Source: Verrucomicrobiota bacterium (GTDB lineage: Bacteria > Verrucomicrobiota > Verrucomicrobiia > Chthoniobacterales > JACTMZ01). Taken from it: a stretch of 64,000 nucleotides of DNA. The DNA is taken from contig JACTMZ010000103.1 in NCBI GenBank assembly GCA_014584375.1, positions 90 to 64,089 on the forward strand. The letters run 5' to 3'. A model generated the notes under the pieces. That model made no database searches. It was not told where the DNA came from and was given only the letters and a program-made list of their open reading frames with translations. The number at the start of each line of letters is the position of its first letter. Position 1 is the first letter of the stretch. Positions 6,355 to 53,045 of this stretch are shown here, one piece after another. The position numbers and the translations under genes were made by a program.

Positions 6355-6492
6355 GGATTGAATAAGCGACGATATTGAAGCGACGGTTTGGCGCGAGGAA
6401 AAATTCCGGGTGAAATTTTGCAAGGCATCGGCATTCGCATGGATTTAGTCGCCGACTTTTCGGCGATCTGCTTAAAATCGCGCATTGTTTGC

Positions 6493-28664: not shown

Positions 28665-30632
28665 ATGTCCATGGACAAATTGTTTGCGGCTCTGGAAAAG
28701 GGCGAGCAGTGCGGGGGGCTTTTAAAGTCATCCCGTGAAAATATTGTGGCGCTCCTGGCTGCGCATCCGCGCGATTACGAGGTTGCCAGCGTGCAGGAAC
28801 TGACGGAGGCCGCAAATTTGGAGGAACTCAACAATCGCTTTTTCCGCACCCTGGCCTTCGGAACGGGCGGCTTGCGCGGCAAGACGATCAGTGGGGTCGT
28901 GACGAATGCCGAGCGCGGAACGCCGCAGGCGATGGAGCGTCCGGAGTTTCCCTGCACGGGCTCCAATGCGATGAATTATTTCAACATCAGCCGCGCCACG
29001 CAGGGGCTTGTCGCCTATGTGAAAAAATGGGCGCTCCGGGAAAATCTGCCCCATCGCCCACGGATTTGCGTCGGCTATGACACCCGGTTTTTCTCGCGTG
29101 AATTTGCGGATCTCGCAGCGCGGGTCATTACCGATCTCGGCTGCGACGCCCTTGTTTTCGATGAACCGCGTCCGACGCCGGAGATGAGTTTTGCCGTGCG
29201 TCAGCGTGCGGCCCAGGCCGGAATCAACATCACGGCCAGTCACAATCCGCCGGCTTACAATGGCTACAAGGCTTATTTCAACGATGGTGGGCAGGTCATT
29301 GAACCGCATGCCTCCGGCATTATTGCGGAGGTCAATGCGATCAAGAGCGCGCATTATGAGCCTCTGCCCGAGTCGGAACGCGGCGCACGCGAATCTCTCG
29401 GCACGGAAATGGACGAGGCCTATCTGAACCGCCTGGAAACCGTCGTGCTGGATCCTTCCGTCGCGGAGCGCGCGAAGGGACTCAAAATTGTCTATTCCCC
29501 ATTGCATGGCGTCGGCGCCTCCATTGTCATGCCACTGCTGACACGCCTCGGATTCGACGTGACACCCGTCGCCGCGCAGCTCGTGCCGGACAGTCGTTTT
29601 CCCACGGTTAAGTCGCCGAATCCCGAATATGCCGAGGCGCTGACCCTTGGCATGAAACTGGCGGACGAAATTGGCGCGGATCTCGTCATGGCCACCGATC
29701 CGGATGACGACCGCATGGGTGTCGCCGTGCGTGACAGGGCGGGGGGGATGAGTCTGCTCACGGGAAATCAAATCGGCTCGATGCTGGCGTTTTACCGGGC
29801 GCAGCGTTTGTTTGACTCGGGGATTTTGAACGAAGCCAACAAGTCCCGGGGGGTCATCATCAAGACCTATGTGACCACCGATTTGCAAAAGGCCGTCGCA
29901 GAGCATTTCGGTCTCCGCTGCGTGGAAACGCTCACTGGATTCAAATACAATGCGGAAAAGCTGCGCAAATACGAGGAAGCGGTTCCGGCGGATTTGCGCG
30001 CGAATTATCCGCATCTCCCCGAAGATGTGACGCGCCGCCTGCGCCTGGAGCATTCTTCGCTTCTCATCATGGGTGGGGAGGAAAGCTACGGTTACACGCT
30101 GGCGGATTTTGCGCACGACAAGGACGCCAATGCGGCCGTGGCCGGCTTCGCCGAAGTCGTGGCCGCCGCACGTCTGCGCGGGCTTACCCCCGTGGAATAC
30201 CTTGACGAAATTTTCTCAATCCTCGGTGTTTACCTCGAACGCGGTGAGTCGCTCGTGTTTGAAGGTGCTGAGGGCGCGGCGCTCATTGCCAGCCTGGCTG
30301 ATTCGTATGCAAAAAATCCGCCTGCCGAAATGGACGGCTCTCCGGTTGTCAAAATGGAAAATTTCGCAACCGATGCCATTTTTGATGTCGAAGGGGATCG
30401 CATTCCGCCCGAGGGGATGATTATTTTCAGCCTGGCGGACGGACGCCGTGCCGCCGTGCGTCCGAGCGGGACGGAGCCCAAGATCAAGTTTTACATGTTC
30501 GGCGTGGAAAAACCTCCGGGGCGTCCGTTTGTTCCCGGGGAACTCGCCGCCGCACGAGAGCGTGTGGGAGCCGGACTCGACAGCTTGTGGAATTGGCTGC
30601 GCTCCGACCTTGACCGGCGGATAAAATCCTGA
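28665..30632 (+). CDS. alpha-D-phosphohexomutase (phosphoglucomutase/phosphomannomutase family)
   Basis: Active-site TASHNPPAYNGYK, metal loop ATDPDDDR and sugar loop GGEESYG. I moved the start to the ATG at 28665 (MSMDKLF...). The ORF-track 5' extension (28122-) runs antisense through the TPR gene. Confidence 0.9.
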   Translation: MSMDKLFAALEKGEQCGGLLKSSRENIVALLAAHPRDYEVASVQELTEAANLEELNNRFFRTLAFGTGGLRGKTISGVVTNAERGTPQAMERPEFPCTGSNAMNYFNISRATQGLVAYVKKWALRENLPHRPRICVGYDTRFFSREFADLAARVITDLGCDALVFDEPRPTPEMSFAVRQRAAQAGINITASHNPPAYNGYKAYFNDGGQVIEPHASGIIAEVNAIKSAHYEPLPESERGARESLGTEMDEAYLNRLETVVLDPSVAERAKGLKIVYSPLHGVGASIVMPLLTRLGFDVTPVAAQLVPDSRFPTVKSPNPEYAEALTLGMKLADEIGADLVMATDPDDDRMGVAVRDRAGGMSLLTGNQIGSMLAFYRAQRLFDSGILNEANKSRGVIIKTYVTTDLQKAVAEHFGLRCVETLTGFKYNAEKLRKYEEAVPADLRANYPHLPEDVTRRLRLEHSSLLIMGGEESYGYTLADFAHDKDANAAVAGFAEVVAAARLRGLTPVEYLDEIFSILGVYLERGESLVFEGAEGAALIASLADSYAKNPPAEMDGSPVVKMENFATDAIFDVEGDRIPPEGMIIFSLADGRRAAVRPSGTEPKIKFYMFGVEKPPGRPFVPGELAAARERVGAGLDSLWNWLRSDLDRRIKS

Positions 30633-30641
30633 TCCAGAACG

Positions 30642-32267
30642 ATGAAAAGTTTTTTGCAGTTTCTGGTTTTCATCCTGGCGATCACGCTGGCTTTGGCCGG
30701 GTTGTATGCGTGGAAAAGCGGCTATTTCAACCGCGCCGCATCACCGCCTTCCCTGGAATCCCATGCCCCGCCGTCCGTGGCCAAGCCGGTGATCCCGCCG
30801 GGACGAATTCCGGGGCTTGCGGCTTTGGATGAGGAATTTGGACGCGTGGCTGGCGCGGTGGTTCCATCGGTCGTCAGCATCACTGCGCCGCGCGGGGACA
30901 GGATTGACCCGAGGGAGGAAATACTCCGCCAGTTTTTTGGCATGGGGCGTCCGCCGCAGCATGACGGGACAATGGCGCAGGGGTCGGGAGTGATTGTTTC
31001 GGAGCAGGGGCATATTGTGACCAATCTCCATGTGATTGAAGGTGCCTCGGAGGCGTCGGTGAGTCTTGCTGATGGACGTCGTTTTTCCGCAAAGCTGCTT
31101 GGAGCTGATCCCCGCACGGATTTGGCGATTTTGAAAATTGACGCAAACGGACTTCAACCGCTCGGATTTGCGGATTCGGAAAAGGTGCGTGTCGGGCAGC
31201 TTGTTTTCGCCGTGGGCAATCCCTTCGGCCTCCAGGAATCCGTCACCCAGGGCATTATTAGCGCACGCGAACGCCTTTTTTCCAGCGAGTCGGTGAATGA
31301 GTTTTTCCAGACGGATGCGCCGATCAACCCCGGGAATTCCGGTGGCCCCCTGGTCAACATCCGGGGGGAAATTGTGGGCATCAACAACTTCATTTTCTCG
31401 CAATCCGGCGGGAGCATGGGCATCGGCTTTGCAATTCCCGCCAACACCGTGCGCCGCGTGTTTGAACAAATTGTTCAGCATGGCCGCGTCCTGCGTCCGT
31501 ATTTCGGCGTTTTCTTGCAGCCGCTGACCGCAGAAACGGCGGTTCGGGTTGGGGCGGCCCCCGATGCGCGCGGTGCTTTGGTCGCGGGTGTCGAATCCGG
31601 TTCTCCGGCGGCAGCGGCGAATATTCAGCCGGGCGATGTTATTCAAAAATTTGACGGACGCGAAATTCGAGATTTCAACGATTTGCGCAAGCGGGTTGCG
31701 GAGGCGAGTCTGGGAACGGAGGTTCGCGTCTCGCTTTTGCGGGGCGGAAAAACCCTCGAAGTTCCCGTGCGGATCCGGGAAATGTCTGCGGATGGTGCAG
31801 CGTTTTCCGCGCCCGATCCCGGTGGAACGCCGAATAATCCCGCCGCGGGCAATGTGTTTGCCGGCGTGTCGGTGCGCGAGATCACTCCCGTCTTGGCTAC
31901 AAAATTTCGTCTGCCCTCAGCCATCGAGGGCGTGCTGATCCAAGCCGTGGAACCGGGGACATCCGCCGCCTCCGTCCTGCGCCCAGGTGACGTGATTGAG
32001 CAAATCAATGATACGCCGATTTCCTCGCCGGCGAATTTTTTGCAGACCGCCGCCGCGCTGCCTCCGGGCGAAAAAGCCGTCGTCCTGATCGCCCGCGGCC
32101 CCGTACGAACCTTCGAAGTCGTCGGCCCAAACACCGCAAAAGGGCACCGCATGGCCCCCGATGGCAAGGCGTCGCCGGTCATGATATCGCCGGAGTTTTC
32201 CCTATTTCCGCACGCCTTGTTTTTAGCTTGGCGAGGGGCTTGGTTTATCCTTGTCAGCTTCTTATAG
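30642..32267 (+). CDS. htrA: HtrA/DegP-family serine protease with two PDZ domains
   Basis: N-terminal TM helix. The catalytic triad contexts are TNLHV, DLAILKI and GNSGGPLVN, followed by two PDZ-like regions. The last ~45 aa look non-homologous and overlap the convergent methyltransferase gene. Confidence 0.9.
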   Translation: MKSFLQFLVFILAITLALAGLYAWKSGYFNRAASPPSLESHAPPSVAKPVIPPGRIPGLAALDEEFGRVAGAVVPSVVSITAPRGDRIDPREEILRQFFGMGRPPQHDGTMAQGSGVIVSEQGHIVTNLHVIEGASEASVSLADGRRFSAKLLGADPRTDLAILKIDANGLQPLGFADSEKVRVGQLVFAVGNPFGLQESVTQGIISARERLFSSESVNEFFQTDAPINPGNSGGPLVNIRGEIVGINNFIFSQSGGSMGIGFAIPANTVRRVFEQIVQHGRVLRPYFGVFLQPLTAETAVRVGAAPDARGALVAGVESGSPAAAANIQPGDVIQKFDGREIRDFNDLRKRVAEASLGTEVRVSLLRGGKTLEVPVRIREMSADGAAFSAPDPGGTPNNPAAGNVFAGVSVREITPVLATKFRLPSAIEGVLIQAVEPGTSAASVLRPGDVIEQINDTPISSPANFLQTAAALPPGEKAVVLIARGPVRTFEVVGPNTAKGHRMAPDGKASPVMISPEFSLFPHALFLAWRGAWFILVSFL

Positions 32268-35200
32268 GAGCGAGCTTGCCGGTGCGCAGCAGGGTGCGGA
32301 AGGTGTCCAGGGTTTCGGTCTTCATGGCTTCGTCCACGAGCGGGAAGGTGGCGAGGATGTGGGCGAATTCCTCCTCGGTCAGGTCGTAGAGCCGGGCGAC
32401 GAGGGCATCGAGTTCGGCGCGCAGGCGGCGGCGGGCGGCCTCGTCCCGAACGCCGTGGGTTTTGTGGGTGGCCTTCGGGCCGAAAATTTCCCGCAGCAGG
32501 TCGTCAAACTCCGCGCTCGTCCCCACCAGCCGCGCCGCACGCTCGACCAGCGGACGAAACGCCGCGTCGGCGGCGGTCAGGCGCGGGATGGGGAGCTGGT
32601 ATACCATAAACATGGAGATACTTGTCGTGACTCGTTTTCTAATGCACCAATCCACCGTAAAACTGTTCATCACCGCGCATAAGAACAAAGGTTCTGCCGC
32701 ACACGAAAAGCAATGCAGGTCGGACAGCATGAGTTTGTGGTTTGCAAACACGTTTCTCGGTAGGATCGTGGCAAGCATCGTTCGTTCATTCGTGTTGCTC
32801 GCGATTTCTCTGAATGCGAACCGATAGCGTGTCGAATGAAGTCGCTTGTCTTCAGATGTTGTCAGACCAAGGCGAGCATATCCATCATCCGAGGACACCC
32901 AATACTTGGCATTAGCGAAATCAGAACAGAACTGATGAATCATCTTTCCCTCGAATAACCTGAATGCACTTCGTTCCGAACTAGCTAAGAAAAGATCGCT
33001 GTCATTAGTCATATGCAGCTCATTCGTGAGCTTGAGTTTCCAGCGGCCATCGACGGTTCTTCCAAGCAGGGGATTCCGAAGTAGTTTGTCGAATATCTCT
33101 ATGTCAGCTTGGGAGTGAAATTCGAGAAGAGAAAGCGAGTCTGGTGATAGTTTCTCGATCAGGGCGCGGGAGAGGCGCAGCGGGGCGGCTTCCGGAAAGC
33201 TGGCGAGTTCCGGCGGGTCGTGCCGCATGAAGGCGACGGGAAACTCGGAGGTGACGCCGCCTTTTTCGAAGGAAAGGACGACGAATTTGAAACGCGAGTC
33301 CACGCCTTCGAAGATGGCTTTGCGATTTTCGAACCCGAAGAGTCCGGTGAGGCGGGTGCGGTCGAAGAGCATGAGCCGGAGCTGCTTGGTGCCGAGGTCG
33401 GTGTAGATGCCGCTGGGGATGACGATGCCGCAGCGTCCGCCCGCGCCGAGGAGGTTGACGCATTGTTCGGTGAAGAGCTTGTAGAGGTTGATGTCGCTGC
33501 CGGCCTTGCGCCCGTTTACGATGCTGATCTGATTCTCGAACTGCGGGGCGGCGCGGAACCATTCGCTGACATGCGGGAAGCCGGAGAGGTAGCCGAGCCA
33601 GGCCGTGTGGATTTCCGGGTCGCAGAGGAGGCTGGCTTTCTCGTCCTCGAAGTCCTCGATGCGCATGGTGTTCTTGGTGACCAGCTCGCTGTGCTGCTGG
33701 AAGAACTCCTTGCTGTTCGGCTTGAAGATTTCCCACGGCGGATTGGTGATGATGGCGTCGAAGCCGCCGCGGGTGATGAGGATGTCGTCGAATTCGTAGG
33801 CCCAGTGGAAGGGGTGGAGGGCGCGGATGTCGTCGAGGGTGAGGGCGCGCTTCTCGGGTTTGCCTTCCTTTTTTTTTGCGGCATCCCAAGTGGCTTGTTG
33901 AAACTTGATGCCGAGGCGGTGGAATTCATCGAGCAGGAGCTTGTCGAGCACGAGGCGGGCGGCGGCTTTTTGCTCCTCGATGCTGCGGCGGAGGGTGACG
34001 AGGGCGTCGCTCTCCTTTGCGCCGCTGCCGATGAGGCTGGGAGCCTCCTTGTAGAGGGTGATGAGGCGGTTTTTCACGGCGAGGAGTTCGGCGTATTTCG
34101 CGGCGCGGACGGTGGCGAGGTGGGCAGCGATGGTTTCGGCACGCTTCGGAGCGGTGGTGGACTCGATGGTGAAGCCGAGATCGCCCTCCGTGGGCTCGTG
34201 GACAAGGGTGAGGCGCTGTTGTTGGCGTCCGGATTTCGGATTGGATGCGTCAAAGGCGGTGGCATCCACGTGGAGGAGGCCGATGAGGGAATTGCCGGAG
34301 AGGATGTTGAACTCGATGTTCGGGAGGGGTTCGAGCTGGTCGCGGTGCTCGGCGGAGGCGACGAGGGAGAGGAAGAGGCGGAGTTTGGCGATCTCGGTGG
34401 CTTCCTCCATGAGGTCCACGCCGAAAAGGTTTTCGGTGACGATTTTCTTTTTCAGCCAGTAAGCGAGCGGGGCCTTGTGGGCTTTTTTCTCGCGCTGGAT
34501 CCAGTCGAGCACGGGCTTATGGGCGAGGGCTTCGCAGCGGCCGAGCAGGGCGGTGTAGAGATTGAGCAGGGTTTTCTGCGCGGCAACAAGGAAGGCACCG
34601 GAGCCGCAGGCGGGATCGAGCAGGGAGAGGCTCGGGAGGATGTCGTGGAGGAGGCGGGCGCAGAGCGGGCCGTCGGCGTGGAAGAGGAGGTCGTCGAGGC
34701 CGGTGAAGAGGCGGGGCGCGGGGAAGGATTTGGGATTCTGCCGGTGGAGTTTCTCTGCGGCGGCGTGGCCGGCATTGGCGCGGTCGAGCACGAGCTGGTG
34801 GATGGTCTGCTCACAGAGGTATTCGGTGATTTCGGGCCGGGTGTAGTAGGCGCCGAATTCCTTCTGGTTGATGTATTTTTCGAAGATGTAGCCGAGCACG
34901 TCGGGATTGATCTCGCGGTCATCGCCGCCGGGGGTGTCATTGAGGCTCCAGGTGTAGCGGCGGAAGAGGGTGAAGAGATCGGCAAAGGCGGCGTCGGGGA
35001 TTTCGATTTTCGCGTAGGCGGCGGTGAGGAGGCCATCGCCCTCGATGCGCTGCTCGATGCCGTGGGGCAGGAAGAGTCCGCCGTTGAGATACGGGATGTC
35101 GCCAAGCGGGACGGAGCCGACGGGCTGGCGCTTGGCGGCGGGCTTGGCGAAGCCTTCGAAGAAGAGGTCGCGCAGGGTGTGGGAGAAGAAGCGGTTTTCC

Positions 35201-35925
35201 CCGGACTTGCCGGAGGCTGCGAGCAGGGCGGGCAGGTAGTCGCGGTTGCCACCGTCGAGGAAGCCTTTTTCCTGCATGAACCAGACGAACATGAGGCGGT
35301 TGAGCAGGACGGAGGCATACCAGCGGCGCTCGCGGGGGTCGGGGATGCCGTGAATGAGGTCGAGCAGCTTGAGATGTTCGTTCTGAAAATCGCGGAAAAA
35401 CTGCTTGGTGACGGTCTCCACATCGAGGGCGCGCTGGACGCGAGTGGCGGTCTCGGTGAGCGAAAAGTGGCCGTCTTCGTCCAGCTCGGAAATGTCCACA
35501 AACAGGGCGGAGAGTTTGGAGAGAAACAGGTCGCCGGGCTGGCCACGCAGGTAGTGGTGGCGGCGGGGGATGCGCATTTTCCCGCCCTGCTCGCGGCGCA
35601 CCCAATACCAAAGGGAGCGGGTGCGCTGGGGATCGAGGAAGATGAGGATGTTTTCGTGACTGATGGCGGTGACCTGCTTCCATGCGGCGGCCTGCTGCGC
35701 GGCATCCGGGAGCTGGCCGTCGGCGGCCACCGCCTCAAACACCCGGCAGCCGGCAAGCTGGGCGATCTCGGTGAGGGTGAAGTCGGCGGACGGGTTGCCA
35801 GCGGTGAGGACGGCGGTTTTTTTCGACGCAGGCGGCTCCCAGCCGAGTTCTTCGATGAAGAGCTTGTGGAAGGCGAATGCTTGGAGGTGCTGGCGGGCAC
35901 GGGTGGTGTTGAGGCGGGTGGACAT
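32254..35925 (-). CDS. large gamma-class N6-adenine DNA methyltransferase with fused C-terminal TaqI_C-like target-recognition domain (Eco57I/type IIG-like, COG1002-type)
   Basis: 1223 aa. Motifs: GAYYTRPEI (aa ~358-366); motif I LLDPACGSGAF (DPACGSG = 34597-34617, verified by back-translation); CGNSL-like ILSGNSLIG; HPFHWAYEF...GGFDAIITNPPW with NPPW at 33733-33744 (verified). The helical region LLNRLMFVWFMQEKGFLD is typical of type IIG/ISP-like enzymes. C-terminal EGKMIHQF...RFAFREIASNTNERTMLATILP is the specificity-domain pattern. Confidence 0.9.
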   Translation of the reverse strand: MSTRLNTTRARQHLQAFAFHKLFIEELGWEPPASKKTAVLTAGNPSADFTLTEIAQLAGCRVFEAVAADGQLPDAAQQAAAWKQVTAISHENILIFLDPQRTRSLWYWVRREQGGKMRIPRRHHYLRGQPGDLFLSKLSALFVDISELDEDGHFSLTETATRVQRALDVETVTKQFFRDFQNEHLKLLDLIHGIPDPRERRWYASVLLNRLMFVWFMQEKGFLDGGNRDYLPALLAASGKSGENRFFSHTLRDLFFEGFAKPAAKRQPVGSVPLGDIPYLNGGLFLPHGIEQRIEGDGLLTAAYAKIEIPDAAFADLFTLFRRYTWSLNDTPGGDDREINPDVLGYIFEKYINQKEFGAYYTRPEITEYLCEQTIHQLVLDRANAGHAAAEKLHRQNPKSFPAPRLFTGLDDLLFHADGPLCARLLHDILPSLSLLDPACGSGAFLVAAQKTLLNLYTALLGRCEALAHKPVLDWIQREKKAHKAPLAYWLKKKIVTENLFGVDLMEEATEIAKLRLFLSLVASAEHRDQLEPLPNIEFNILSGNSLIGLLHVDATAFDASNPKSGRQQQRLTLVHEPTEGDLGFTIESTTAPKRAETIAAHLATVRAAKYAELLAVKNRLITLYKEAPSLIGSGAKESDALVTLRRSIEEQKAAARLVLDKLLLDEFHRLGIKFQQATWDAAKKKEGKPEKRALTLDDIRALHPFHWAYEFDDILITRGGFDAIITNPPWEIFKPNSKEFFQQHSELVTKNTMRIEDFEDEKASLLCDPEIHTAWLGYLSGFPHVSEWFRAAPQFENQISIVNGRKAGSDINLYKLFTEQCVNLLGAGGRCGIVIPSGIYTDLGTKQLRLMLFDRTRLTGLFGFENRKAIFEGVDSRFKFVVLSFEKGGVTSEFPVAFMRHDPPELASFPEAAPLRLSRALIEKLSPDSLSLLEFHSQADIEIFDKLLRNPLLGRTVDGRWKLKLTNELHMTNDSDLFLASSERSAFRLFEGKMIHQFCSDFANAKYWVSSDDGYARLGLTTSEDKRLHSTRYRFAFREIASNTNERTMLATILPRNVFANHKLMLSDLHCFSCAAEPLFLCAVMNSFTVDWCIRKRVTTSISMFMVYQLPIPRLTAADAAFRPLVERAARLVGTSAEFDDLLREIFGPKATHKTHGVRDEAARRRLRAELDALVARLYDLTEEEFAHILATFPLVDEAMKTETLDTFRTLLRTGKLAPIRS

Positions 35926-35930
35926 GAGGA

Positions 35931-35961
35931 AAGGGTGAAGGATGAATTATGAAGGGTGAAG
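35931..35961 (-). promoter_or_regulatory. two copies of a 10-nt direct repeat, 21 nt apart, in the 47-nt gap just upstream of the methyltransferase start
   Basis: The plus strand reads AAGGGTGAAG at 35931-35940 and again at 35952-35961 (CTTCACCCTT on the coding strand). The spacing is two helical turns. A regulatory role is speculative. Confidence 0.3.
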
Positions 35962-35972
35962 AGTGGCCGAGG

Positions 35973-37352
35973 TTAGACGCGGCCTTTGGGGGTGAGGCGG
36001 TATTTTTGCAGGCGGCTGTTGGGTTTATCGGGCCGTGTCGGCACGATGAGTCCGGCTTCCAAAGCCGGGAGCAAATAGGCTTTGCGGAAGTGTTCCCGAT
36101 CAGTCAGCCCGAGTTTATCCTGTAACTCCTGTCGGGTGTGTTCACCTGTGAAAGCACCCAAAAGCTGTTGGACTTGCGGGGTGACTTGCGGGGTAACTTG
36201 CGGGGTGACTGGTTCAGGCACTTTCACCGCCTTGAGGTATTCCGGCGCAAAGCGGAACTCGACGGTGAGGCCGGTGCCATCGAAGCTGAGCGCGGGTCTG
36301 GGGGTGCCAGCTTCCTTGCAGGCGGAAAAGATGCGTTCGATGCCACGGCCCCAGGTCTCGATCTCCCCGGAACGAAAGAAGACGTGAGCGATGGAGGGGT
36401 TGAACGGTGTCGAAGAGTGTGTCCCGAGAAGCGTTTTCACGGTCCAGCCATCTGGGAGGACGGCGGGATTCCAGATGCGGAGGCGGTCTTCATACACGCG
36501 GATCTGCACGGGCGCGCCGATGGCGTAGTCGCGATGGACGAGCGCATTGAGCACGGCCTCGCGCAGGGCGGCATCCGGCACGGGGTAGCGCTCGATGCGC
36601 TGGAGGCCCTGATAGGTGATGGCGGCTTTGAGATACTTGGTGCGGACAAGATCAATGGTCTTTGCGGCCTGAGTGAAGAGGTCGCCTTGGATCAGGTCAT
36701 GGTAGGCGAGGTCGGATTCGGAACGGAAGAAACCGATTTTTACGAAGGTTCCGGCGACGTAGCGCCCGGGATCTGCATGAAAAAGGAGCACGGCGGCGCG
36801 GCGGAGGTAAGTGCCCTCGGTGAGCTGGAGTCTTTCCACAAGGGAGATCTTCGATGAGCGCAGGTCCGCCGGATCGAGCCGTCCGCTGCTGCGGGCGAGA
36901 TTGCGAAACTGGCTGATGGCAGCGGTGGAGAGATCGGTAACTTTGACACCCGGCATGGGCACGGCATCCCAGGTGCGACCATGCTTGCGGAGGAGAAAGC
37001 GGTCCAGCGCGACCCCTTTCTGCTCCTGGAGCGTGCTGCCGCTGCGGGTGGAATAATGCCCGCGATAGCTGATGGGGTTTGGGTAGGGCGGGACGATGAT
37101 TTCGAGGAAGTCGCCGCCGTTTTCCTGACGGAGATTTACCTCGGCGACGATGCCGAGCACATCGCGGACTTTATTCGGCAGCTCTTCGAGAAGCTTGGCG
37201 GCATCCGGCAGACCGATGACGACGCCTTGATCATCCCTGCCGATGTGCAAGGCACCGCCCCCGGCATTGGCAAAGCCGCAGAGCCAGCGTAAATTCTCAT
37301 CCCGCCAGGTTTCCTTCCATTCAAGGTGCTGGTGTTCTTTCATGGGGAGCAT
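35973..37352 (-). CDS. AlbA_2 (Schlafen-like, formerly divergent AAA_4) + HATPase_c_4 (RecG-C-like) + C-terminal winged-helix protein
   Basis: N-terminal EHQHLEWKETW (the E..LEfK start of AlbA_2). Central REAVLNALVHRDYAIGAPVQIRVYEDRLRIWNPAVLP...TPFNPSIAHVFFRSGEIETWGRGIERI (HATPase_c_4 pattern). A (TPQV)3 linker, then ELQDKLGL.DREHFRKAYLLPALEAGLI...PDKPNSRLQKYRLTPKG (wHTH tail). An alternative start exists at 37343. Confidence 0.8.
   Translation of the reverse strand: MLPMKEHQHLEWKETWRDENLRWLCGFANAGGGALHIGRDDQGVVIGLPDAAKLLEELPNKVRDVLGIVAEVNLRQENGGDFLEIIVPPYPNPISYRGHYSTRSGSTLQEQKGVALDRFLLRKHGRTWDAVPMPGVKVTDLSTAAISQFRNLARSSGRLDPADLRSSKISLVERLQLTEGTYLRRAAVLLFHADPGRYVAGTFVKIGFFRSESDLAYHDLIQGDLFTQAAKTIDLVRTKYLKAAITYQGLQRIERYPVPDAALREAVLNALVHRDYAIGAPVQIRVYEDRLRIWNPAVLPDGWTVKTLLGTHSSTPFNPSIAHVFFRSGEIETWGRGIERIFSACKEAGTPRPALSFDGTGLTVEFRFAPEYLKAVKVPEPVTPQVTPQVTPQVQQLLGAFTGEHTRQELQDKLGLTDREHFRKAYLLPALEAGLIVPTRPDKPNSRLQKYRLTPKGRV
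36172..36211 (-). repeat. 12-bp tandem repeat, about 3.3 copies, encoding (TPQV)3
   Basis: The plus strand reads ACTTGCGGGGTG / ACTTGCGGGGTA / ACTTGCGGGGTG / ACTG. The reverse complement translates to PVTPQVTPQVTPQV, inside the AlbA_2-family gene. Confidence 0.9.
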
Positions 37353-37370
37353 CGGAGTGGATGGCGCGTT

Positions 37371-40300
37371 TCAAGGAATCATGATCCCGAGGGAGCAGAT
37401 GATGCGGGGTTCGCGGGCGTGGGCTTCCTCGATTGGGGTGCAGAGGCGGTCTTCCTCGTGGAGGGTGAGGACGAGTTCGGCGAGTTTTTCGTGGGAAACG
37501 TCGGCGCGCAGGTCACGGCTGAGCAGCTCGCGGGCGTGCTCACTAAGCGGGGCAGCGTAGATGGCATCGAGAGCCTGGTGGAGGGCTTTGATGTCGAAGA
37601 GCGTGCCTTGGACTGCGGCGGCGTGGTCTTTGAGCCGTTCATAGACGCGGCGGCGGGTGCTGCCGGGTTTTCCGAGCTGACCGCCGGTAGTGCTGTGTTC
37701 CTGCTGGATGCCGGTGACGGCCTGGCGGACGAGGTCGTGGTGATTGGCCAGGCGCGGCAGAGCGGGTGTGGAGGGCTCGCACTCGGCGGCGCGGAGGATT
37801 TCATGCTGGCTCTCGGTGACGGTGCGGCCCTGTTCGTCCACCCAGGCGAGGGCATCGTGGCCATCGGTCGTGCGGATATAGACCATGGCACCGGAAGCGG
37901 GCTGCACGCCGCCGGTGGCGGATGCCGGACGCGGCGGGACGGCGGAGAGTGCCTTGGTGCTAAAGACGACATTGGCGAGATTCGGGATCGTCTGGCGCAG
38001 GGCGGGATCGGCATCGCTGGCGTTTTTCCAAATCTGCCAGGCGAGCGAGGCAAGATCTACCTCGCCGTCCTCGGGGTCGTCGAGGGTGCCGCCTTTTTCG
38101 GTGAAGAGATCCTGGAGGAGGTGGTCGTGGCGCTCGTCCTCGAAGAAGGTTTCATCGGTGCCGACGACTTGCGCATTTTCATCAAGACGCTGGCGGATGC
38201 GCTCGCGCAGGCGAATGAGCCGATTGACGCCATCCGCCGGAAGGAAGGAATAGCATTGAATCTCCTCCGCCTTCTGCCCGATGCGGTCCACACGGCCCGC
38301 GCGCTGGATGAGGCGGATGATGGCCCAAGGCAGGTCGAAGTTCACCACCACGGCGGCGTCCTGGAGGTTCTGACCCTCGGAGAGCACGTCGGTGGCGATG
38401 AGGACGCGAAGTTCCTCGGTGGTGGAGACTTTGTCGCGCGCCTTGTTGCTCTCCGGGCTGAAGCGCCGCGTGAGGAGAGCAGGTTCCTCGGTGTTCCCGC
38501 AGACCGCGGCGAGACGGGTGACGCCGCGCGCCTTCAACTGCGCGGCAAGGTAATTTACCGTGTCGGAGAACTGCGAGAAAATGATCACCTTTTCATCGGT
38601 GTGGGTCTGGGTGAGCAGCTTGTGCAACTCGGCGAGCTTTTCGTCGCGCTCCGGCTCCCAGGCGCCGGACAGCTTGAGCGCGGAGAAGAGACGTTCGGCG
38701 TCCTGAAGTAGGTGTTCGCCAAGGCCGGGAACGAAGAGATCCGTCCGCAGCCAGTCAAAGTTTCGCACATGGGCATGACGCAGGAGGTCGTAGGCCTGCG
38801 CGGCGACGGCTCGGAAATCCTCCAGCGAGGTGGCCGTGATCTCCGTCAGTTCGGGCGGAACGTCCTCCGTCTCCTGGCCGAAGAGACTGCTCTCGCTGTC
38901 GGCGTCCTCATCGCGCGTGTCGAACAAGGCGGTGTCCTGCGTGCCAATGGGCAGCGGCAGGCCGTTTTCGATGGCGTGGAGGGCGATAAAGTTGCGCAGG
39001 ATGTGGCGGCGCAGCGAGAGGAGGAAGGAGTGGCCGCTGCTTTCGAGGCGTTTGAAGAGATTCGTGCGGCAAAAGCCAATGAGGCGCTTGCCGGCGCGGG
39101 AGAGATTGCGCATTACCTCCGCCTCATCCTGCGAGGGCGGCGTGTCGAGCGTGGGACGGATGTAGTTTGCCAGCCCGTAGCGCGGCAGGTGCAGGATGCG
39201 GATGGTGTCAACCACGGCGTCGGAGTAGAGCTTCGCAAACTGGTCGTTGGGACTTTTTTCGCGAATGCGAAACTCCAACTTCTTCGGTTTGCGTTTCGGG
39301 AAGTGGAAACGGGTGCCGTCCTCGAGCAGCAGGAAGCGGCGGGCTGTGCCATCCCTGGCCGTGCCGCATTTCGGGCAGGCCTCCTGCACGCCGGAGAGGA
39401 TACCGTCGCACTCCGGACACGGCGACCACGCGTAGTTGGCCTCCACAAAGCTGCGCGTGCGGCGCACCATGTAGAGGCGCATCATTTCCCGCCAGTCGTC
39501 GGCGTGGCCGCTTTTCTCAAACGCGGCGAGGCAGTTCACCGGGCACTGGTGGCGGCGGGTGAATTCGTCCACGCGGCTGTCGCAGTCGCGGCGTAGGTAT
39601 TCCTCCGGGCGAATCGGAAGGGTCGCATCGGCATCGAGAAAGAGGCGGAGCTGGCTGGCCAGATCGAGGTAGGACTTGTTGTAGGGCGTGGCGGACAGCA
39701 GGATGACCTTGCAGCCGTTGCGCGAGATGTAGTCGCGGATCGCCGACCACCGGCGGCCCGCACGGTTGCGTAGGTTGTGGCTTTCATCAATGATGACAAC
39801 GCGGTAGCGGCGCAGCTCGGGCAGGATATTTTGCACCTGGGTGGCGGAGACAACCTTCGCGATGAGCCGGTAGCGGTGCGCGTAGTCCTCCCACATGCCG
39901 CAGAGATTTTTCGGGCAGACAATGAGCGTCTCCAGCGAGCGCGGCGGATCCTGGAAAACCCGCGCCAACGCAGTCGCCATGAGCGTCTTGCCGAGACCAA
40001 CCACATCCCCCAGCACCACGCCGCCGCGCTTCTCCAGCTTGCCCGCGGCCATGCGCACGGCCGCAGCCTGGAAATCGAGGAGTGTGTTCCGCAGGTCGGC
40101 GGGAATCTGAAACTCGGAGAGCCCGGCGCGCGCCTCCTCGGCCAGGTGGTAGGCCATTTTGATGTAAATCCAGTAGGGCGGCAGTGTGTCCAGTCCGGCC
40201 CAGCTTTCCTCGATGACCTGGATCAACTCCTGCGTGATGTCCACACACCAGCGGTCGTTCCAGCGGTCCTCAAACCATTTCGCAAGCTTCTGTGTCGCGT

Positions 40301-40844
40301 CGTGATCGAGTACATCGACATTCAACTCGCCCTGATGCGAGAGGCCTGAGAGCGTGAGATTGCTGCTGCCGAGAAAGCCGGTGATCGGGTTGTTCGGGTC
40401 ATCGCGGAAACACAGGTAGAGCTTTGCGTGCAGCGTGTGACGGAGGAAAAGTTTCACAACCACCTTGCCCGCTTTGAGCTGGGCGGCCAAGCGGCGCAAT
40501 CCCTTTTCGTCGGCGTCTGTGGGAGTGCCCAGTGTGAGCTGCTCGCGGAATTCTTCCGCCAATTTGCGTTTCAGGCGGATGACGCGTTGATTGCTGATTT
40601 CTTCGTTGCCGGTCGAGAGGCTCAGCGCATCGCGTAATTCGTCCCGCTCCGATTTTTGCATCCCTACCAACAGGCGGCACTGATTTCCCTCACCGCCGGG
40701 CCATTGCTCAATTGCTGAATCAATCGCCTTCCATCCGCGCAAATTGAAATAGCCGACGCAGAAATCCGACCGATGCCCCAAAGTGAGTGTTTGCTCAAGG
40801 GCGGGGAGGAGATTCTGTTCGATGTTGTCGAAAATCCGGGGCAT
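37371..40844 (-). CDS. HKD (phospholipase-D superfamily) nuclease domain fused to an SNF2-family helicase/translocase
   Basis: 1157 aa.
- Single HKD motif [26 protein letters not shown]: HAK = 40422-40430 (verified), motif to 40359.
- SF2 motif [10 protein letters not shown] (39984-39998).
- Motif II DESH at 39777-39788 (verified).
- CPEC-x10-CPKC zinc-ribbon-like insert (39366-39419).
- Motifs IV-VI: [34 protein letters not shown].
- About 290 aa of C-terminal region with no motif I recognise. Confidence 0.9.
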
Positions 40845-46684: not shown

Positions 46685-47488
46685 TTAAAAAAACGGATTG
46701 TTGGATTTTTCCCAGCCGACCGTGGTGAGCGGTCCATGGCCGGGACAAAGGATGGTGTCGTCCGGAAGTCCGAGAATTTCGCGCCGAATCGCCTTGAGTG
46801 CGCCGGAGTAGTCGCTTCGCACGCCGCCGATGGAGCCCGCGAAAAGTGCGTCGCCGACAATCGCAGCCCTCGCCGCCAGACCTTCTATGAGAAATGTGGT
46901 TCCGCCCGGAGTGTGTCCGGGGGTTGATCGCGTGCGGATAAAATGTTTTCCGACATTGAACAAATCGCCCGGGCGAAATGTGCCTGCGCCGCGAACAGGT
47001 TCTGCTTCCGCAACCCACGCTTCGGCATCAAGCTCGTGCAAAAGGGCATCGAGTGAGCCGGTGTGATCGGGGTGACTGTGGGTGAGAAAAATGGCCGCGA
47101 CATCGAGCGTTTCACGCCGCACCAGATCCAAAATCGGACGCGCATCAAGGCCGGTGTCAAAAATGGCGGCTGCGCGCGTCGCGGGATCCCAGACAACATA
47201 GGCGTTGACGGTTGTGTCACCAAATGTCTCGGTCACGGTCGCAAGCCACACGGGGGCGGGAATCTCCGGCGGGCGGTTTCCCTGGGCCAGGCGGACGAGG
47301 GCATCCGCCCGAAGCTTCAATGTCGGCGCCAGGGCCCGCAGGTCGTCTTGGTCAAACTCCCCGGCGATCAGTCGGCACACGGAATCCTCCGGAATTCCCG
47401 CGATTGCGGCGGCCTCGCCCGGCGCAAGTCCCAGCCCCTGCATCGCCTTGCCAAGCACATCGGAAAAATTGTCTTCCAGTGGAATCAT
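46685..47488 (-). CDS. metallo-beta-lactamase-fold hydrolase with an N-terminal HTH-like domain
   Basis: THSHPDHTG (HxHxDH) plus downstream His/Asp ligand contexts. The N-terminal ~70 aa resemble a short XRE-like HTH. The start overlaps the upstream ABC gene stop by 4 nt. Confidence 0.8.
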   Translation of the reverse strand: MIPLEDNFSDVLGKAMQGLGLAPGEAAAIAGIPEDSVCRLIAGEFDQDDLRALAPTLKLRADALVRLAQGNRPPEIPAPVWLATVTETFGDTTVNAYVVWDPATRAAAIFDTGLDARPILDLVRRETLDVAAIFLTHSHPDHTGSLDALLHELDAEAWVAEAEPVRGAGTFRPGDLFNVGKHFIRTRSTPGHTPGGTTFLIEGLAARAAIVGDALFAGSIGGVRSDYSGALKAIRREILGLPDDTILCPGHGPLTTVGWEKSNNPFF

Positions 47489-50400
47489 GCCGGTGTGCTT
47501 TTCAACTGCTTTCGCAGGACGAAGTAAAGGGCTTGAAATGTGACGAGGGAGGAAATGACAAGCACCCAGGTGTTGAATGTGAGCACGCTGGATTGAACCC
47601 CAAAGTACCGTTTTTCCGGCCCAAAGAAGACGTTGAGGAAACGGCTTTCGCGGTAATCGCTTTGTTCCATCTCCGCCTTGTTTACGAGATCGGTGATCTT
47701 TTGATTCACAAACAGGCGTTCGGCGCTGAGGTCGCCTTCGGAGGGCTCAAGCAGCTCCGGGGAAGGAGGAGCGCCGTGAATGGCTCTGTCAATCCACCGC
47801 AGCCGGGTGTTGATTTCCCCGGTGCTTTTTCCGTGCAGCCCGGAGAGGGCGGCGAGCAGTTCCTTGAGGTCGTCAAGTCGTTGCTGTTCGCCTTCGGTCA
47901 GATGCGTGGTGCGAGCGAGGCGGTTGATCTGCTTCTGAATGGCCTCCTGACGTCCGGTGAGGGGATTTAATTTTGCCTGTGCATAGACGAGCGCCTCGTA
48001 GGACCAGCGCATGGGCATGAACTCGCAGATCAGCGGCACCTGCAGATCGCTGCGCGGCTCCCCCGCATCGGGATTTTGCGAAAACCAACGGCTGATCGAA
48101 TAGACAAAGTCGAGGTTCTTGTTCATTTCCTCATACTTGATCAGCGCACCCCCGAGAATGATTTGCGGAATGAGGACGATGGGAATGATGTTCACCGCTG
48201 TTTTTCCTTCGTGTACGAGACTGGAAATAAGCAGGCCGATGGCGATGCCGCTCACGGCGGTGAGAACCATCGCCACCAGGAAAATCCAGAACATGCCCCG
48301 CACTTCGAGAATGTAATTGCCGATGAGAATGAAGAGTATGCTTTGAATTACGGCAAACAGGGAAAGTGTCAGTACTTTGGCCAAAATGTAGTAGCCCAGA
48401 CGTACGTTGAGATTGCGCTCGCGCTGTAAGACCGGGCGGTCGCGAATGATGTCGTCCACGCTGTTGGTCAGGCCCAGGAACATCGCCACGACGAGCGCGA
48501 GAAAGAGGTAGGTGGGAATGTGAAAGGACGAGGCAAAATCGTAGTGGCCGGATTCGGAATAGCGCAGCACGGCGCCGATGAGTGCGGCCAGCAGCGGCGC
48601 CTCCACCATGGTGGTGAGCAGGTTGCCCCGGTTGCGCAGCTTGCTGATGAAGGCGCGGGCCAGCAGGGTGCGAAACTGCAAAAATTCCCGCCGCAGAAAA
48701 CCGCGCAAGGACCAGCGGGATTCCGAGGGGGTGTCTTCGGCGAACGACGGCGAGGAGTCCGCCGCCGGCTGGCGTACGTCGCGCATGAGCCGCCAGGCCT
48801 CGTATTTGTCGCGCCAGTAATCCGGCGAATAGCGCCGCACAGGCACAAGCTGTCCGCGATCGTTTTCCTCGTAAATCACATCGCCCCCAAGATCTCGGAG
48901 CGGAGTTTCCAAAACATCGAAGACAAATTCGGGGCGCGTGGTGCCGCAGGCGGGACATCCGCCCAGCGGTGTGCCGAAATGCTGTTGATGCTCCGCCTCC
49001 GCAAAATAGGAAAGCATTTCGGACGGGGTTCCGAAAAACACCATGCGCCCACCGCGATCCAGCAGCATGGCCTTGTTGAACATTTGGAAAATTTTCGAAC
49101 TCGGCTGGTGGATCGTCACCACGACGATCTTGTTGTGGGACATGGCCCGGATGATTTCCATGACGTGCTCCGAATCCTTGGATGACAGCCCGGAGGTTGG
49201 TTCGTCGAAGAGGTAAATGTCGGCCGAGCTGATCATGTCGAGGCCGATGTTGAGGCGTTTGCGCTCGCCGCCGCTCAGCGTTTTGCGGTGCGTTGCGCCG
49301 ACCACGCTGTCGCGGCGTTCGTTGAGGCCGAGTTCGGCGAGCTTGCCGTCAATGCGCCGCCCGCGCTCCCGGCGCGACAGGTAGGGGGAGCGGATCGCCG
49401 CCGCAAAGTTCAGGTTTTCACGGATGGTCAGATGTTCGTCAAACGCATCGAACTGGGGGATGTAGGTGACGTATTGCTTGAGCGCGTCAAAATTACCGTA
49501 AAGGGGCGTTCCGTTGAAAAGAACTTCTCCGCGCACCGGTGGAAATTGTCCGGCCAAAGCACGAAGCAAACTGCTTTTCCCGGAGCCGCTGGCACCCATC
49601 ACGCAGATCATCTCCCCACGGGTCGCCGGGAAGCTGACGCCGTCCACCCCGAGGGCTCCGTTTTTAAAGCGGCAGATCAGGTCGCGGACTTCGAGGTGGT
49701 GAATCACATTGCGTTCCTCCACCAGCAGGCGTTCGGAAAAGTTGCAACGCAGGGACTGGGTGGCGTCAATTTGAATCAAATCCCCGTCGCGCAGCGGAGT
49801 TTCATTGCGAATCGGGAGTTCCCCGATGAGAACCGGATGATCGGCTTTGAGAACTTCGAGGCGTCCGACCAGAAGCTGAAAATCACAAAAGATGCGCAGC
49901 AGAATTTCTCCGCCCGCACCGGGAGCAAGCAGGATGTCGTCCTCATCGAGCAGTGACGGATTGTTGGAGACGAGATAGGTGGTTTTTGACTGCTTGAGAT
50001 GGAAGCGACCGCCGTAGGAACGGGCCTGGCGGCGCAGATCGCCGAGGGCCAGCTCGGTGTCGTTGTCGAAGATGATTTTGTCCTCCAGCGTCGCCTCAAC
50101 CTGCGTCCCCAGGGTCAGGCGCCGACCGTTGAGGGTGGCATCCACGGACTTCAGCGCCACCACGAGAATTTTGAGCCCGAAACGAACCTCCAACGAACTG
50201 TCACGTGTTCGGTTTTTCTCCAGCTGGATCTCGTTGCTGTCGGTGACTGTGACGAAAATGTGCGCGACCGACACATTTTTCTTGGCGTTGAAGTAGTAAA
50301 CGAGGTCCTGATACGTGAGCACGTTTTCGTCCACCACGATGCGCTGACCGGGATAGACCCGTGAAAATTCGCCGGGGCGCAGGGCGCGTCCCTGCACGGA

Positions 50401-52957: not shown

Positions 52958-52973
52958 AAACAATCCGATTCAA

Positions 52974-52996
52974 GCCTTCCCAAAAAAGGCTTTTTG
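52974..52996 (+). terminator. candidate intrinsic terminator after the exonuclease gene
   Basis: GCCTT-cccaaaa-AAGGC followed by TTTTTG. The stem is short (5 bp) but the T-tract is clean, 17 nt after the stop. Confidence 0.35.
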
Positions 52997-53045
52997 TTGG
53001 CCTTGTCCTTCGTCGAAGTTGCCGGTAATTTCCCCGGCAACTCGC

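What the first reader, a model, noticed from the sequence alone, without database searches (positions are those of the whole stretch)
32600..33170. Sharp low-GC patch coinciding with the methyltransferase specificity domain: a likely swapped TRD module
My counts of 60-nt blocks gave 48% (32641-32700), 43% (32881-32940) and 43% (32941-33000) GC inside this stretch. Just upstream in the same gene they gave 63% (33361-33420) and 75% (34621-34680). The 910-aa stop-free antisense shadow ORF that covers the rest of the gene (33220-35952) ends where the patch begins. The patch encodes aa ~920-1110 (…LFEGKMIHQFCSDF…RYRFAFREIASNTNERTMLATILPRNVF…), the TaqI_C-like target-recognition region. GC climbs again in the last ~110 codons. 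The simplest reading is a mosaic gene whose DNA-recognition module came from a lower-GC donor. That would mean recent specificity switching by domain shuffling, as known for type I HsdS and type IIG enzymes.
Basis: seen in the sequence. Interest (0 to 1): 0.6.

Follow-up and report, generated by a model that had tools for sequence, protein, structure and literature searches.

The report
Swapped DNA-recognition module in a methyltransferase
A sharp AT-rich stretch inside a large defence-type DNA methyltransferase gene is its DNA-reading domain, which has a different ancestry from the rest of the gene; this is a known way for such enzymes to change targets, and the same dip occurs across the whole gene family.

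Summary
The gene is at 32254-35925 (- strand, 1223 aa). Its GC3 drops from 0.85 to 0.51 over codons 925-1108 (window 32602-33153). This is the lowest-GC 500-nt stretch of the window, and amino-acid composition does not explain it (z = -15).

The tract lies just after the catalytic domain of an Eco57I/MmeI-like N6-adenine methyltransferase. Folded alone, it matches the DNA-recognition domains of CamA, M.TaqI, BrxX and MmeI.

The tract has its own ancestry. The nearest homologue is about 83% identical on both sides but 40% identical inside, with synonymous sites saturated. The identity breakpoints (codons 937-1108) coincide with the GC3 breakpoints. Across 120 family members, identity in the patch does not correlate with identity in the backbone (rho 0.02, against 0.72 for backbone versus C-terminal tail).

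"Lower-GC donor" and "recent" are not shown. Nothing in about 7.6 billion proteins exceeds 52% identity to the patch. The only close strain carries the same allele. The dip is family-wide: 59 of 63 loci show it, including low-GC hosts.

Verdict: a real mosaic target-recognition domain and a new member of a known kind.

The parts
32254..35925 (-). Gene for a 1223-aa Eco57I/MmeI-like gamma-class N6-adenine DNA methyltransferase with a C-terminal recognition domain
   Evidence: ORF list and translation. Pfam Eco57I scores 72 bits against a cut-off of 25.3, and MmeI_Mtase scores 37 bits against 27. PADLOC REase_MTase_IIG gives 2e-102. More than 7900 homologues were found.
32602..33153 (-). Low-GC3 tract, codons 925-1108: the TaqI-type target-recognition domain (TRD), with ancestry separate from the rest of the gene
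   Evidence: GC3 segmentation. Identity to the nearest homologue is 0.40 inside and 0.83 outside, with breakpoints at codons 937-1108. The patch-only model matches the recognition domains of CamA, M.TaqI, BrxX and MmeI.
33136..33150 (-). Conserved LSPDS motif (aa 926-930) at the 5' breakpoint of the tract; a possible homology anchor
   Evidence: Motif position. These columns are near-invariant in the family alignment. That it anchors recombination is an inference.
32578..32601 (-). Conserved YQLPIPRL motif (aa 1109-1116) immediately 3' of the tract; the 3' breakpoint shared by nearly all lineages
   Evidence: Motif position. The right edge of the low-GC3 tract falls at query codons 1081-1111 in 13 of 16 other loci segmented.
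32257..32601 (-). Conserved, high-GC C-terminal helical tail (aa 1109-1223), which co-evolves with the N-terminal backbone
   Evidence: GC is 0.684. Pairwise identity of this tail tracks N-terminal identity, rho 0.72. The model shows helices with pLDDT around 90.
34591..34617 (-). AdoMet-binding motif I, DPACGSGAF (aa 437-445)
   Evidence: Read directly from the sequence. The residues are invariant or nearly invariant in the family.
33733..33744 (-). Catalytic motif IV, NPPW (aa 728-731)
   Evidence: Read directly from the sequence. The residues are invariant in 60 homologues.
37371..40844 (-). Partner gene: 1157-aa PLD (HKD) nuclease fused to an SNF2 helicase, the conserved upstream neighbour of the methyltransferase
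   Evidence: Pfam PLDc_2, SNF2-rel_dom and Helicase_C. PADLOC candidate C3a139 'HKD+Snf2', 3e-46. It is found directly upstream of the methyltransferase in essentially every locus with enough flank, at 49-84% identity.
35973..37352 (-). Variable accessory gene between the two core genes (AlbA_2 + HATPase_c_4 + Fic-like_C, 459 aa)
   Evidence: Pfam. It is absent from this slot in the other loci. L001 has a YhcG/DUF1016 nuclease there instead.
33220..35952 (+). 910-aa antisense shadow ORF; not a gene, but a by-product of the high GC3 of the sense strand
   Evidence: ORF list. It stops where sense-strand GC3 falls.

Best explanation
The patch encodes the target-recognition domain (TRD) of a large gamma-class N6-adenine DNA methyltransferase. 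That enzyme works with a conserved PLD-nuclease/SNF2-helicase partner in a restriction-modification-like defence locus. The TRD tract (codons 925-1108) does not share the history of the rest of the gene. It was replaced as a cassette by homologous recombination. In this gene the breakpoints abut two family-conserved motifs, LSPDS and YQLPIPRL. The incoming tract kept an AT-richer codon composition than the high-GC3 backbone. Because one TRD sets the sequence that is methylated, and presumably also the sequence the partner nuclease spares, swapping it changes specificity in one step, as in type I HsdS, type IIG/IIL enzymes and BREX PglX.

This is not a peculiarity of this gene. TRD replacement is rampant across the family, and the TRD tract is systematically AT-shifted relative to its backbone in nearly all hosts. 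The dip therefore marks a high-turnover module, not a particular low-GC donor or a datable recent event.

What is shown: the composition step, the fold, the coincident breakpoints, the decoupled phylogeny and the conserved gene pair. What is inferred: the recombination mechanism, the role of the helicase-nuclease, and that specificity actually changed.
For: The composition step is real and is not explained by amino-acid composition.

The tract is the TRD. It follows the Eco57I catalytic domain. The 524-aa and 221-aa models match CamA, BrxX/PglX, M.BseCI, M.TaqI and MmeI.

The tract has separate ancestry in this gene. Against L001, nucleotide identity is 0.85-0.90 on both sides and 0.45-0.55 inside. 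Third-position identity at conserved residues falls from about 0.75 to about 0.3. The ML identity breakpoints (937-1108) match the GC3 breakpoints (925-1108).

Shuffling is family-wide. Over 7021 pairs, N-terminal versus patch identity gives rho 0.017, while N-terminal versus C-tail gives rho 0.72. Examples are N 0.94 with patch 0.42, and N 0.57 with patch 0.73. The best backbone partner differs from the best patch partner in most loci.

The dip is tract-wide rather than tied to fast-evolving codons. Conserved scaffold codons in the patch have GC3 0.52 and variable ones 0.50, while variable backbone codons stay at 0.68; the direction holds in 22 of 22 genes, p = 5e-7.

The left breakpoint varies from codon 668 to 1050 between lineages while the right one is nearly fixed, as expected for independent tracts.

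The helicase-nuclease pairing is conserved. TRD substitution in type IIG genes is documented in PMC2853133.
Against: No donor or closely related TRD allele was found; the best matches are 48-52% identical. The replacement event is therefore inferred, not observed.

The only close strain has the same allele, so nothing shows switching within the population.

The dip occurs in 59 of 63 loci, including low-GC hosts. Part of it could be an intrinsic property of TRD-coding DNA rather than a mark of import.

Methyltransferase activity, the recognition sequence and the role of the PLD-SNF2 partner are all untested. No nuclease domain was recognised in the methyltransferase protein itself.
Confidence: 0.72

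Rival explanations
1. The low GC3 is an intrinsic, family-wide property of TRD-coding DNA. The tract could be long resident in this gene and kept near the AT-rich mutational equilibrium, because GC-favouring forces (selection on codons, or biased gene conversion during homologous recombination) act weakly on a segment too divergent to recombine internally. On this view the dip says nothing about transfer into this gene.
For: The patch is lower than its backbone in 59 of 63 loci across backbone GC3 of 0.16-0.90. The shift is proportional to host GC3 (slope 0.66, r 0.85). There is no regression to a common pool value: low-GC hosts show 0.26 against 0.30. The right boundary is nearly fixed. Q's residual from the family regression, -0.12, lies within the family scatter.
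Against: The left boundary of the low-GC3 tract varies by more than 350 codons between lineages and often runs into well-conserved methyltransferase sequence. The size of the dip ranges from 0.00 to -0.38 among hosts of similar backbone GC3. The pair with a co-inherited TRD, L004 and L008, has small dips. Patch and backbone phylogenies are decoupled, and some pairs have patch identity above backbone identity. This rival explains composition but not ancestry, and it may well act together with the best explanation.
Confidence: 0.2
2. The TRD diverged in place under strong diversifying selection, without any recombinational replacement.
For: TRDs are known to evolve fast. The patch retains a conserved scaffold, including W962, E969, G993, W1009, R1035 and R1039, so it is homologous throughout the family. 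Identity to all homologues sits at a floor of about 0.35-0.48.
Against: Synonymous sites at conserved residues are saturated inside the patch but not outside. Conserved scaffold codons share the low GC3. Positive selection on amino acids does not lower GC3 by 0.34. Some pairs of distant backbones share similar patches, for example N 0.57 with patch 0.73.
Confidence: 0.04
3. The patch is a metagenome assembly chimera, in which a homologous gene from another organism was joined through the conserved flanks.
For: The window appears to come from a metagenome-assembled genome. Conserved flanks around a variable core are a classic trap for assemblers.
Against: The identical patch was assembled independently in at least two other samples, DRR438465 and DRR438461, with the same synteny. 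The reading frame is intact. Comparable dips occur in isolate genomes: Pseudoxanthomonas yeongjuensis DSM 18204 at -0.17, and Deinococcus marmoris and D. saxicola at -0.14 and -0.17.
Confidence: 0.02

Closest known systems
Type IIG / IIL restriction-modification enzymes (Eco57I and MmeI families) with exchangeable C-terminal TRDs
   Same: The order of the methyltransferase motifs and TRD is the same (motif I, then NPPW, then TRD). Pfam Eco57I and MmeI_Mtase both match, and there is a weak MmeI helical-spacer hit. MmeI appears among the fold matches of the TRD. Allelic TRD substitution is documented for type IIG genes (PMC2853133).
   Different: No nuclease domain was recognised in this polypeptide. 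A separate PLD-SNF2 protein is strictly co-conserved with it, which suggests that cleavage is delegated to that partner. Pfam MmeI_TRD and TaqI_C do not match, and there is no significant sequence similarity to any solved structure.
BREX PglX/BrxX methyltransferase
   Same: It is a large (about 1200 aa) gamma-class N6-adenine methyltransferase with a C-terminal TRD that sets the system's specificity. It is a top fold match (9ewz, 8q56, 8c45). Its TRD has been engineered to change the target motif (bioRxiv 10.1101/2024.04.12.589231 / PMC11341690; listed by title and abstract, not read).
   Different: No PglZ, BrxC, BrxA, BrxB or BrxL is in the neighbourhood. The PADLOC PglX score is only 1e-7, far below the type IIG models.
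Type I HsdS and type ISP enzymes (LlaGI/LlaBIII): one TRD serving both an ATP-dependent translocase-nuclease and a methyltransferase
   Same: The logic is the same: the TRD is the only specificity determinant, an SF2 translocase plus nuclease is the presumed effector, and specificity changes by TRD reassortment (background knowledge; the review PMC3874165 was listed but not read).
   Different: In this locus the helicase is of the SNF2 type with an N-terminal PLD nuclease and is a separate protein. The single TRD is fused to the methyltransferase. There are no hsdS-like tandem TRDs, spare cassettes or inverted repeats.
M.TaqI and CamA: solitary or type II gamma-class N6-adenine methyltransferases with a TaqI-type C-terminal recognition domain
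   Same: These are the best fold matches for the patch alone: CamA at E 8e-7, and M.TaqI at TMq 0.52 with rmsd 4.2-4.8 A over about 180 columns.
   Different: Sequence identity is only 10-14%, and Pfam TaqI_C gives no hit. The protein here is three times larger and sits in a defence locus.

Membership tests
Gamma-class N6-adenine DNA methyltransferase (Eco57I/MmeI-like) | AdoMet-binding motif I (xxDPxxGxGxF) | tested here: met
   DPACGSGAF at aa 437-445, invariant or nearly invariant in the family
Gamma-class N6-adenine DNA methyltransferase (Eco57I/MmeI-like) | Catalytic motif IV (NPPY/F/W) downstream of motif I, with the TRD C-terminal to both | tested here: met
   NPPW at aa 728-731, invariant in 60 sequences. 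The TRD fold spans aa ~925-1108
Gamma-class N6-adenine DNA methyltransferase (Eco57I/MmeI-like) | Profile match above the curated threshold | tested here: met
   Pfam Eco57I 72.2 bits (cut-off 25.3); MmeI_Mtase 37 bits (cut-off 27)
Gamma-class N6-adenine DNA methyltransferase (Eco57I/MmeI-like) | Methyltransferase activity on a defined DNA motif | not testable with these tools
   Needs methylome sequencing or an enzyme assay
Type IIG restriction-modification enzyme (nuclease and methyltransferase in one polypeptide) | An endonuclease domain in the same protein | tested here: inconclusive
   aa 4-383 match a PADLOC type IIG model at 2e-102, but Pfam recognises no nuclease domain there, only weak DUF7814 and MmeI_hel hits. 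No PD-(D/E)XK motif was established.
TaqI_C-type target-recognition domain | Sequence-profile match to Pfam TaqI_C (PF12950) | tested here: not met
   No hit even at E <= 10 for aa 700-1223
TaqI_C-type target-recognition domain | Fold similarity to the DNA-recognition domains of M.TaqI, CamA, BrxX and MmeI | tested here: met
   Patch-only model (pLDDT 85.8, pTM 0.77). Foldseek probability is 1.00 to CamA, M.TaqI, BrxX, M.BseCI and MmeI. That the aligned part of M.TaqI is its C-terminal domain is an inference, because the patch has no Rossmann fold.
Mosaic / exchanged TRD module | Discordant ancestry of the module and the backbone, with coincident breakpoints | tested here: met
Mosaic / exchanged TRD module | An identifiable donor, or a sister allele with the same backbone and a different TRD in a close strain (evidence of recency) | tested here: not met
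   The best patch relative is 48-52% identical. The close strain has an identical patch. No closer backbone was found.
Phase-variable shufflon-type specificity switching (as in inverting hsdS loci) | Spare TRD cassettes with inverted or direct repeats nearby | tested here: not met
   tblastn and blastn of the gene against the whole window find no second copy or repeat
Diversity-generating retroelement target | A template repeat matching the variable region, plus a reverse transcriptase | tested here: not met
   No repeat of the patch anywhere in the window. No reverse transcriptase among the 12 neighbouring ORFs scanned with Pfam; the rest of the window was not scanned for one.
Hma defence system | HmaB is an m5C methyltransferase | tested here: not met
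   This methyltransferase is the N6-adenine type with NPPW. The definition of Hma comes from PMC8565338. The HmaA hit on the helicase is weaker than the C3a139 hit.
DISARM class 1 | Core DrmA helicase and DrmB (DUF1998) | tested here: not met
   Neither is among the neighbouring ORFs scanned with Pfam. The locus is flanked by housekeeping genes.
BREX | PglZ and BrxC/PglY | tested here: not met
   Absent from the neighbourhood

The most novel reading that the evidence does not exclude
The TRD tract of this family, and perhaps exchangeable specificity modules in general, carries a systematic AT shift at synonymous sites that scales with host GC. The shift is seen in 59 of 63 loci from more than ten phyla, with a nearly fixed 3' edge and a lineage-specific 5' edge. 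This would be an intragenic counterpart of the rule that mobile DNA is AT-richer than its host. It could serve as a sequence-only detector of swappable recognition modules. It sits in a widespread two-gene pair, a PLD-SNF2 nuclease-helicase plus a methyltransferase-TRD, for which I found no experimental characterisation in the few papers I searched.
Probability: 0.3. Interest if true: 0.55.

Novelty: new member of a known kind. Interest (0 to 1): 0.36.

Why it matters
The finding gives a clean, quantified example of a specificity module that can be delimited from raw sequence alone. The GC3 step and the ancestry step fall at the same codons, next to conserved motifs that could guide recombination.

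It also corrects a tempting inference. A low-GC patch in a recognition domain should not be read as a recent import from a low-GC donor, because here the whole family shows the dip in nearly every host. Practically, the breakpoints (LSPDS and YQLPIPRL) mark natural junctions for TRD-swap engineering in this family. The conserved PLD-SNF2 partner also points to a common restriction-like system that I did not find described experimentally and that is worth testing.

Tried and rejected
1. Donor search. A patch-only word-indexed search returned only short fragments; the tool appears to favour candidates of similar length, since the query's own protein was not returned. I therefore repeated it with an index-free scan of 1.84 billion representatives. 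Neither found anything above 52% identity.

2. Close-strain alleles. A search with aa 780-1223 found nothing above 59%. The query's 90% cluster has only one other member, which carries the same patch.

3. Solved structures by sequence or profile. Nothing was significant, so fold search was used instead.

5. Spare cassettes, shufflon or DGR template: none in the window.

6. Internal promoter or terminator as the reason for AT-richness: no excess over shuffled sequence.

7. Amino-acid composition as the cause of the dip: rejected.

8. Fast-evolving codons as the cause: rejected, because conserved scaffold codons are equally GC3-poor.

9. A common TRD pool with a GC3 near 0.5: rejected, because low-GC hosts do not have patches above their backbone.

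10. Hma, DISARM and BREX membership: rejected.

11. Polarised substitution analysis to separate amelioration from equilibrium: not attempted, because the co-inherited TRD pairs with DNA in hand are too divergent (at least 24% at the amino-acid level).
Full report
**Observation.** The gene spans 32254..35925 on the minus strand and encodes 1223 aa. The 500-nt window starting at 32601 has the lowest GC of the 64-kb window, 0.464 against a mean of 0.581 and sd of 0.034. In codon terms, GC3 is about 0.85 over aa 1-900, falls to 0.42-0.55 over aa ~920-1090, and returns to about 0.85.

A maximum-likelihood two-breakpoint segmentation places the low tract at codons 925-1108, which is window 32602-33153. 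GC3 is 0.505 inside and 0.848 outside. The statistic is 92, against a maximum of 21 in 200 permutations. From the backbone's codon usage and the patch's own amino-acid composition one expects GC3 of 0.858 +/- 0.023, so z = -15. Composition of the encoded protein is therefore not the cause. GC1 also drops (0.47 against 0.66), while GC2 does not.

Among the window's 12 long high-GC3 ORFs, no other has an internal dip beyond -0.15. The 910-aa antisense ORF 33220..35952 exists and is a shadow of the high sense-strand GC3.

**What the gene and the patch are.** Pfam gives Eco57I (72 bits, aa 498-873 in two stretches) and MmeI_Mtase. PADLOC gives type IIG models, the best at 2e-102. Motif I, DPACGSGAF, is at aa 437-445 and motif IV, NPPW, at aa 728-731; both are invariant in the family. 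The patch begins about 50 codons after the catalytic domain ends.

Pfam TaqI_C does not match even at E <= 10. Sequence and profile searches of the PDB are empty. An AlphaFold model of aa 700-1223 (pLDDT 79) matches CamA, BrxX/PglX, M.BseCI, M.TaqI and MmeI at E of 1e-11 to 1e-8. A model of aa 905-1125 alone (pLDDT 85.8, pTM 0.77) matches the same proteins: CamA at 8e-7, and M.TaqI with TMq 0.52 and rmsd 4.2-4.8 A over about 180 columns. The patch has no Rossmann fold, so the matched parts must be their DNA-recognition domains; this step is an inference.

**Mosaicism in this gene.** The nearest homologue is P0002, which is L001, a Verrucomicrobiaceae MAG. It is 0.83 identical over aa 1-900, 0.43 over aa 920-1100 and 0.78 over aa 1110-1223. 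All 119 listed homologues sit at 0.35-0.48 in the patch, whether they are 0.53 or 0.83 identical elsewhere.

At the DNA level, identity to L001 is 0.85-0.90 on both sides and 0.45-0.55 inside. Third-position identity at conserved residues falls from about 0.75 to about 0.3, which indicates synonymous saturation. Independent segmentation of the identity series gives codons 937-1108. That is the same right breakpoint as the GC3 step, and a left one 12 codons away. In this gene the breakpoints abut the conserved motifs LSPDS (aa 926-930) and YQLPIPRL (aa 1109-1116).

**Mosaicism across the family.** Over 7021 pairs among 120 proteins, identity in the N-terminal region does not correlate with identity in the patch (Spearman 0.017, p = 0.16). 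It correlates well with identity in the C-terminal tail (0.72). Some pairs are 0.94 identical in the N-terminal region and 0.42 in the patch; others are 0.57 and 0.73. In the genome loci, the best backbone partner and the best patch partner usually differ. For L001 the best backbone partner is this window at 0.86, and the best patch partner is L007 at 0.70. This is the signature of cassette exchange, which is already documented for type IIG TRDs (PMC2853133).

**Why "lower-GC donor" and "recent" are not established.**
- *No donor.* The patch-only search of 5.8 billion clusters returns at best 52% identity. An index-free scan of 1.84 billion representatives returns at best 48%.
- *The dip is family-wide.* With exact ORFs, 21 homologues show it. 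In 12 high-GC hosts, mean GC3 goes from 0.75 to 0.43-0.53 and back to 0.80. With tblastn-mapped codons in 63 loci whose backbone GC3 ranges from 0.16 to 0.90, the patch is lower than its own backbone in 59. The fit is patch = 0.07 + 0.66 x backbone, r = 0.85. By backbone bin the patch values run 0.30 to 0.26, 0.51 to 0.42, 0.68 to 0.50 and 0.82 to 0.62. Low-GC hosts do not carry patches richer in GC than their backbones. So the tracts do not regress to a shared pool value, and "a lower-GC donor" cannot be the general cause.
- *The shift belongs to the whole tract.* Family-conserved scaffold codons in the patch have GC3 of 0.52 and variable ones 0.50. Variable backbone codons stay at 0.68. The direction holds in 22 of 22 genes, p = 5e-7.
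- *The edges behave differently.* The right edge of the low-GC3 tract is almost fixed at query codons 1081-1111. The left edge ranges from 668 to 1050 between lineages. This fits independent recombination tracts of different lengths that end at the first strongly conserved stretch after the TRD.
- *No population-level switching is seen.* The only close strain (L067/L068; 99.3% nt identity over 21.8 kb, same synteny) has an identical patch.

**Mechanism.** A PLD-nuclease/SNF2-helicase gene (37371..40844) lies directly upstream of the methyltransferase in essentially every homologous locus with enough flank, at 49-84% identity. The locus here is a three-gene insertion between housekeeping genes. 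I infer a restriction-modification-like pair in which the single TRD on the methyltransferase sets the modified sequence and the partner acts on unmodified DNA. Replacing the TRD tract then changes both activities together, as in type I, IIG/IIL, ISP and BREX systems. Activity, motif and partner function are untested. Whether the N-terminal 380 aa of the methyltransferase is a nuclease remains inconclusive.

**Rivals.**
- An intrinsic AT-ward process on TRD-coding DNA may contribute to the composition. It does not explain the discordant ancestry or the variable left edges.
- In-place diversifying selection is contradicted by synonymous saturation, by GC3-poor conserved codons and by shared patches on distant backbones.
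- Assembly chimerism is contradicted by independent assemblies with the identical patch and by dips in isolate genomes.
- Shufflon and DGR mechanisms are excluded by the absence of any repeat or spare cassette. Hma, DISARM and BREX memberships fail on defining components.

**Verdict.** The feature is real and correctly located, and it is the recognition domain. The gene is a mosaic of a kind already known for type IIG-like enzymes. The specific claims of a lower-GC donor and of recency are not supported. The low GC is a family-wide attribute of this high-turnover module.

Noticed in passing
window 29676-35862: SNP desert relative to the close strain L067/L068. This 6.2-kb tract holds 1 SNP and one 15-nt indel where 54 substitutions are expected from the 0.88% divergence of the surrounding 15.6 kb (P ~1e-22). 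It covers the 3' end of the PGM gene, the HtrA gene and nearly the whole methyltransferase gene including the patch. The helicase gene has normal SNP density. It is either a recent recombination tract carrying the whole methyltransferase allele, or assembler haplotype switching in strain-mixed metagenomes.
   Followed up: partly
window 35863-35907 (methyltransferase codons 7-21) and 29528-29675: Dense SNP clusters mark both edges of the desert: 12 SNPs in 45 nt, causing 5 amino-acid changes, at the 5' end of the methyltransferase gene, and 11 SNPs in 148 nt inside the PGM gene.
   Followed up: partly
window 35973-37352; L001 8717-9940; L067 8574-9953: The slot between the conserved helicase and methyltransferase genes holds variable accessory genes. 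In the window it is an AlbA_2 + HATPase_c_4 + Fic-like_C protein (459 aa). In L001 it is a YhcG/DUF1016 PDDEXK nuclease. Most other loci have nothing there. Some family members (P0032, P0034, P0048 and others, about 1370-1390 aa) have an AlbA_2 domain fused to the methyltransferase. In the close strain L067 the gene is called as 338 + 84 aa, which may be a frameshift.
   Followed up: partly
window 32254-40844; loci L001-L047: A PLD(HKD)-SNF2 protein paired with an Eco57I-like methyltransferase-TRD is conserved as a gene pair in Verrucomicrobiota, Cyanobacteria, Deinococcota, Proteobacteria, Acidobacteriota, Chloroflexota, Planctomycetota, Fibrobacterota and others. PADLOC lists the helicase only as candidate C3a139 'HKD+Snf2'. 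I found no experimental description in the papers searched.
   Followed up: partly
window 32254-40844 versus the rest of the window: The backbone of the defence genes has higher GC3 (methyltransferase 0.84, helicase 0.81) than the window's other long genes (about 0.72-0.74). The whole locus may itself be compositionally atypical for the host.
   Followed up: no
L001 codons ~757-1098; L003 704-1107; L031 721-1110; L008 668-1110 (query coordinates): In several relatives the low-GC3 tract is much longer than in this window. It extends upstream into the well-conserved C-terminal half of the catalytic domain, where protein identity stays high but synonymous identity drops.
   Followed up: partly
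window 47485-51087 (-): A 1200-aa protein combines a weak N-terminal TerB hit with ABC_tran and ABC-2 membrane domains, which is an unusual architecture.
   Followed up: no
window 6001-6451, 9101-9351, 52951-53051, 60751-60801: These are other, milder low-GC stretches (about 0.50 in 500-nt windows). They were not examined.
   Followed up: no
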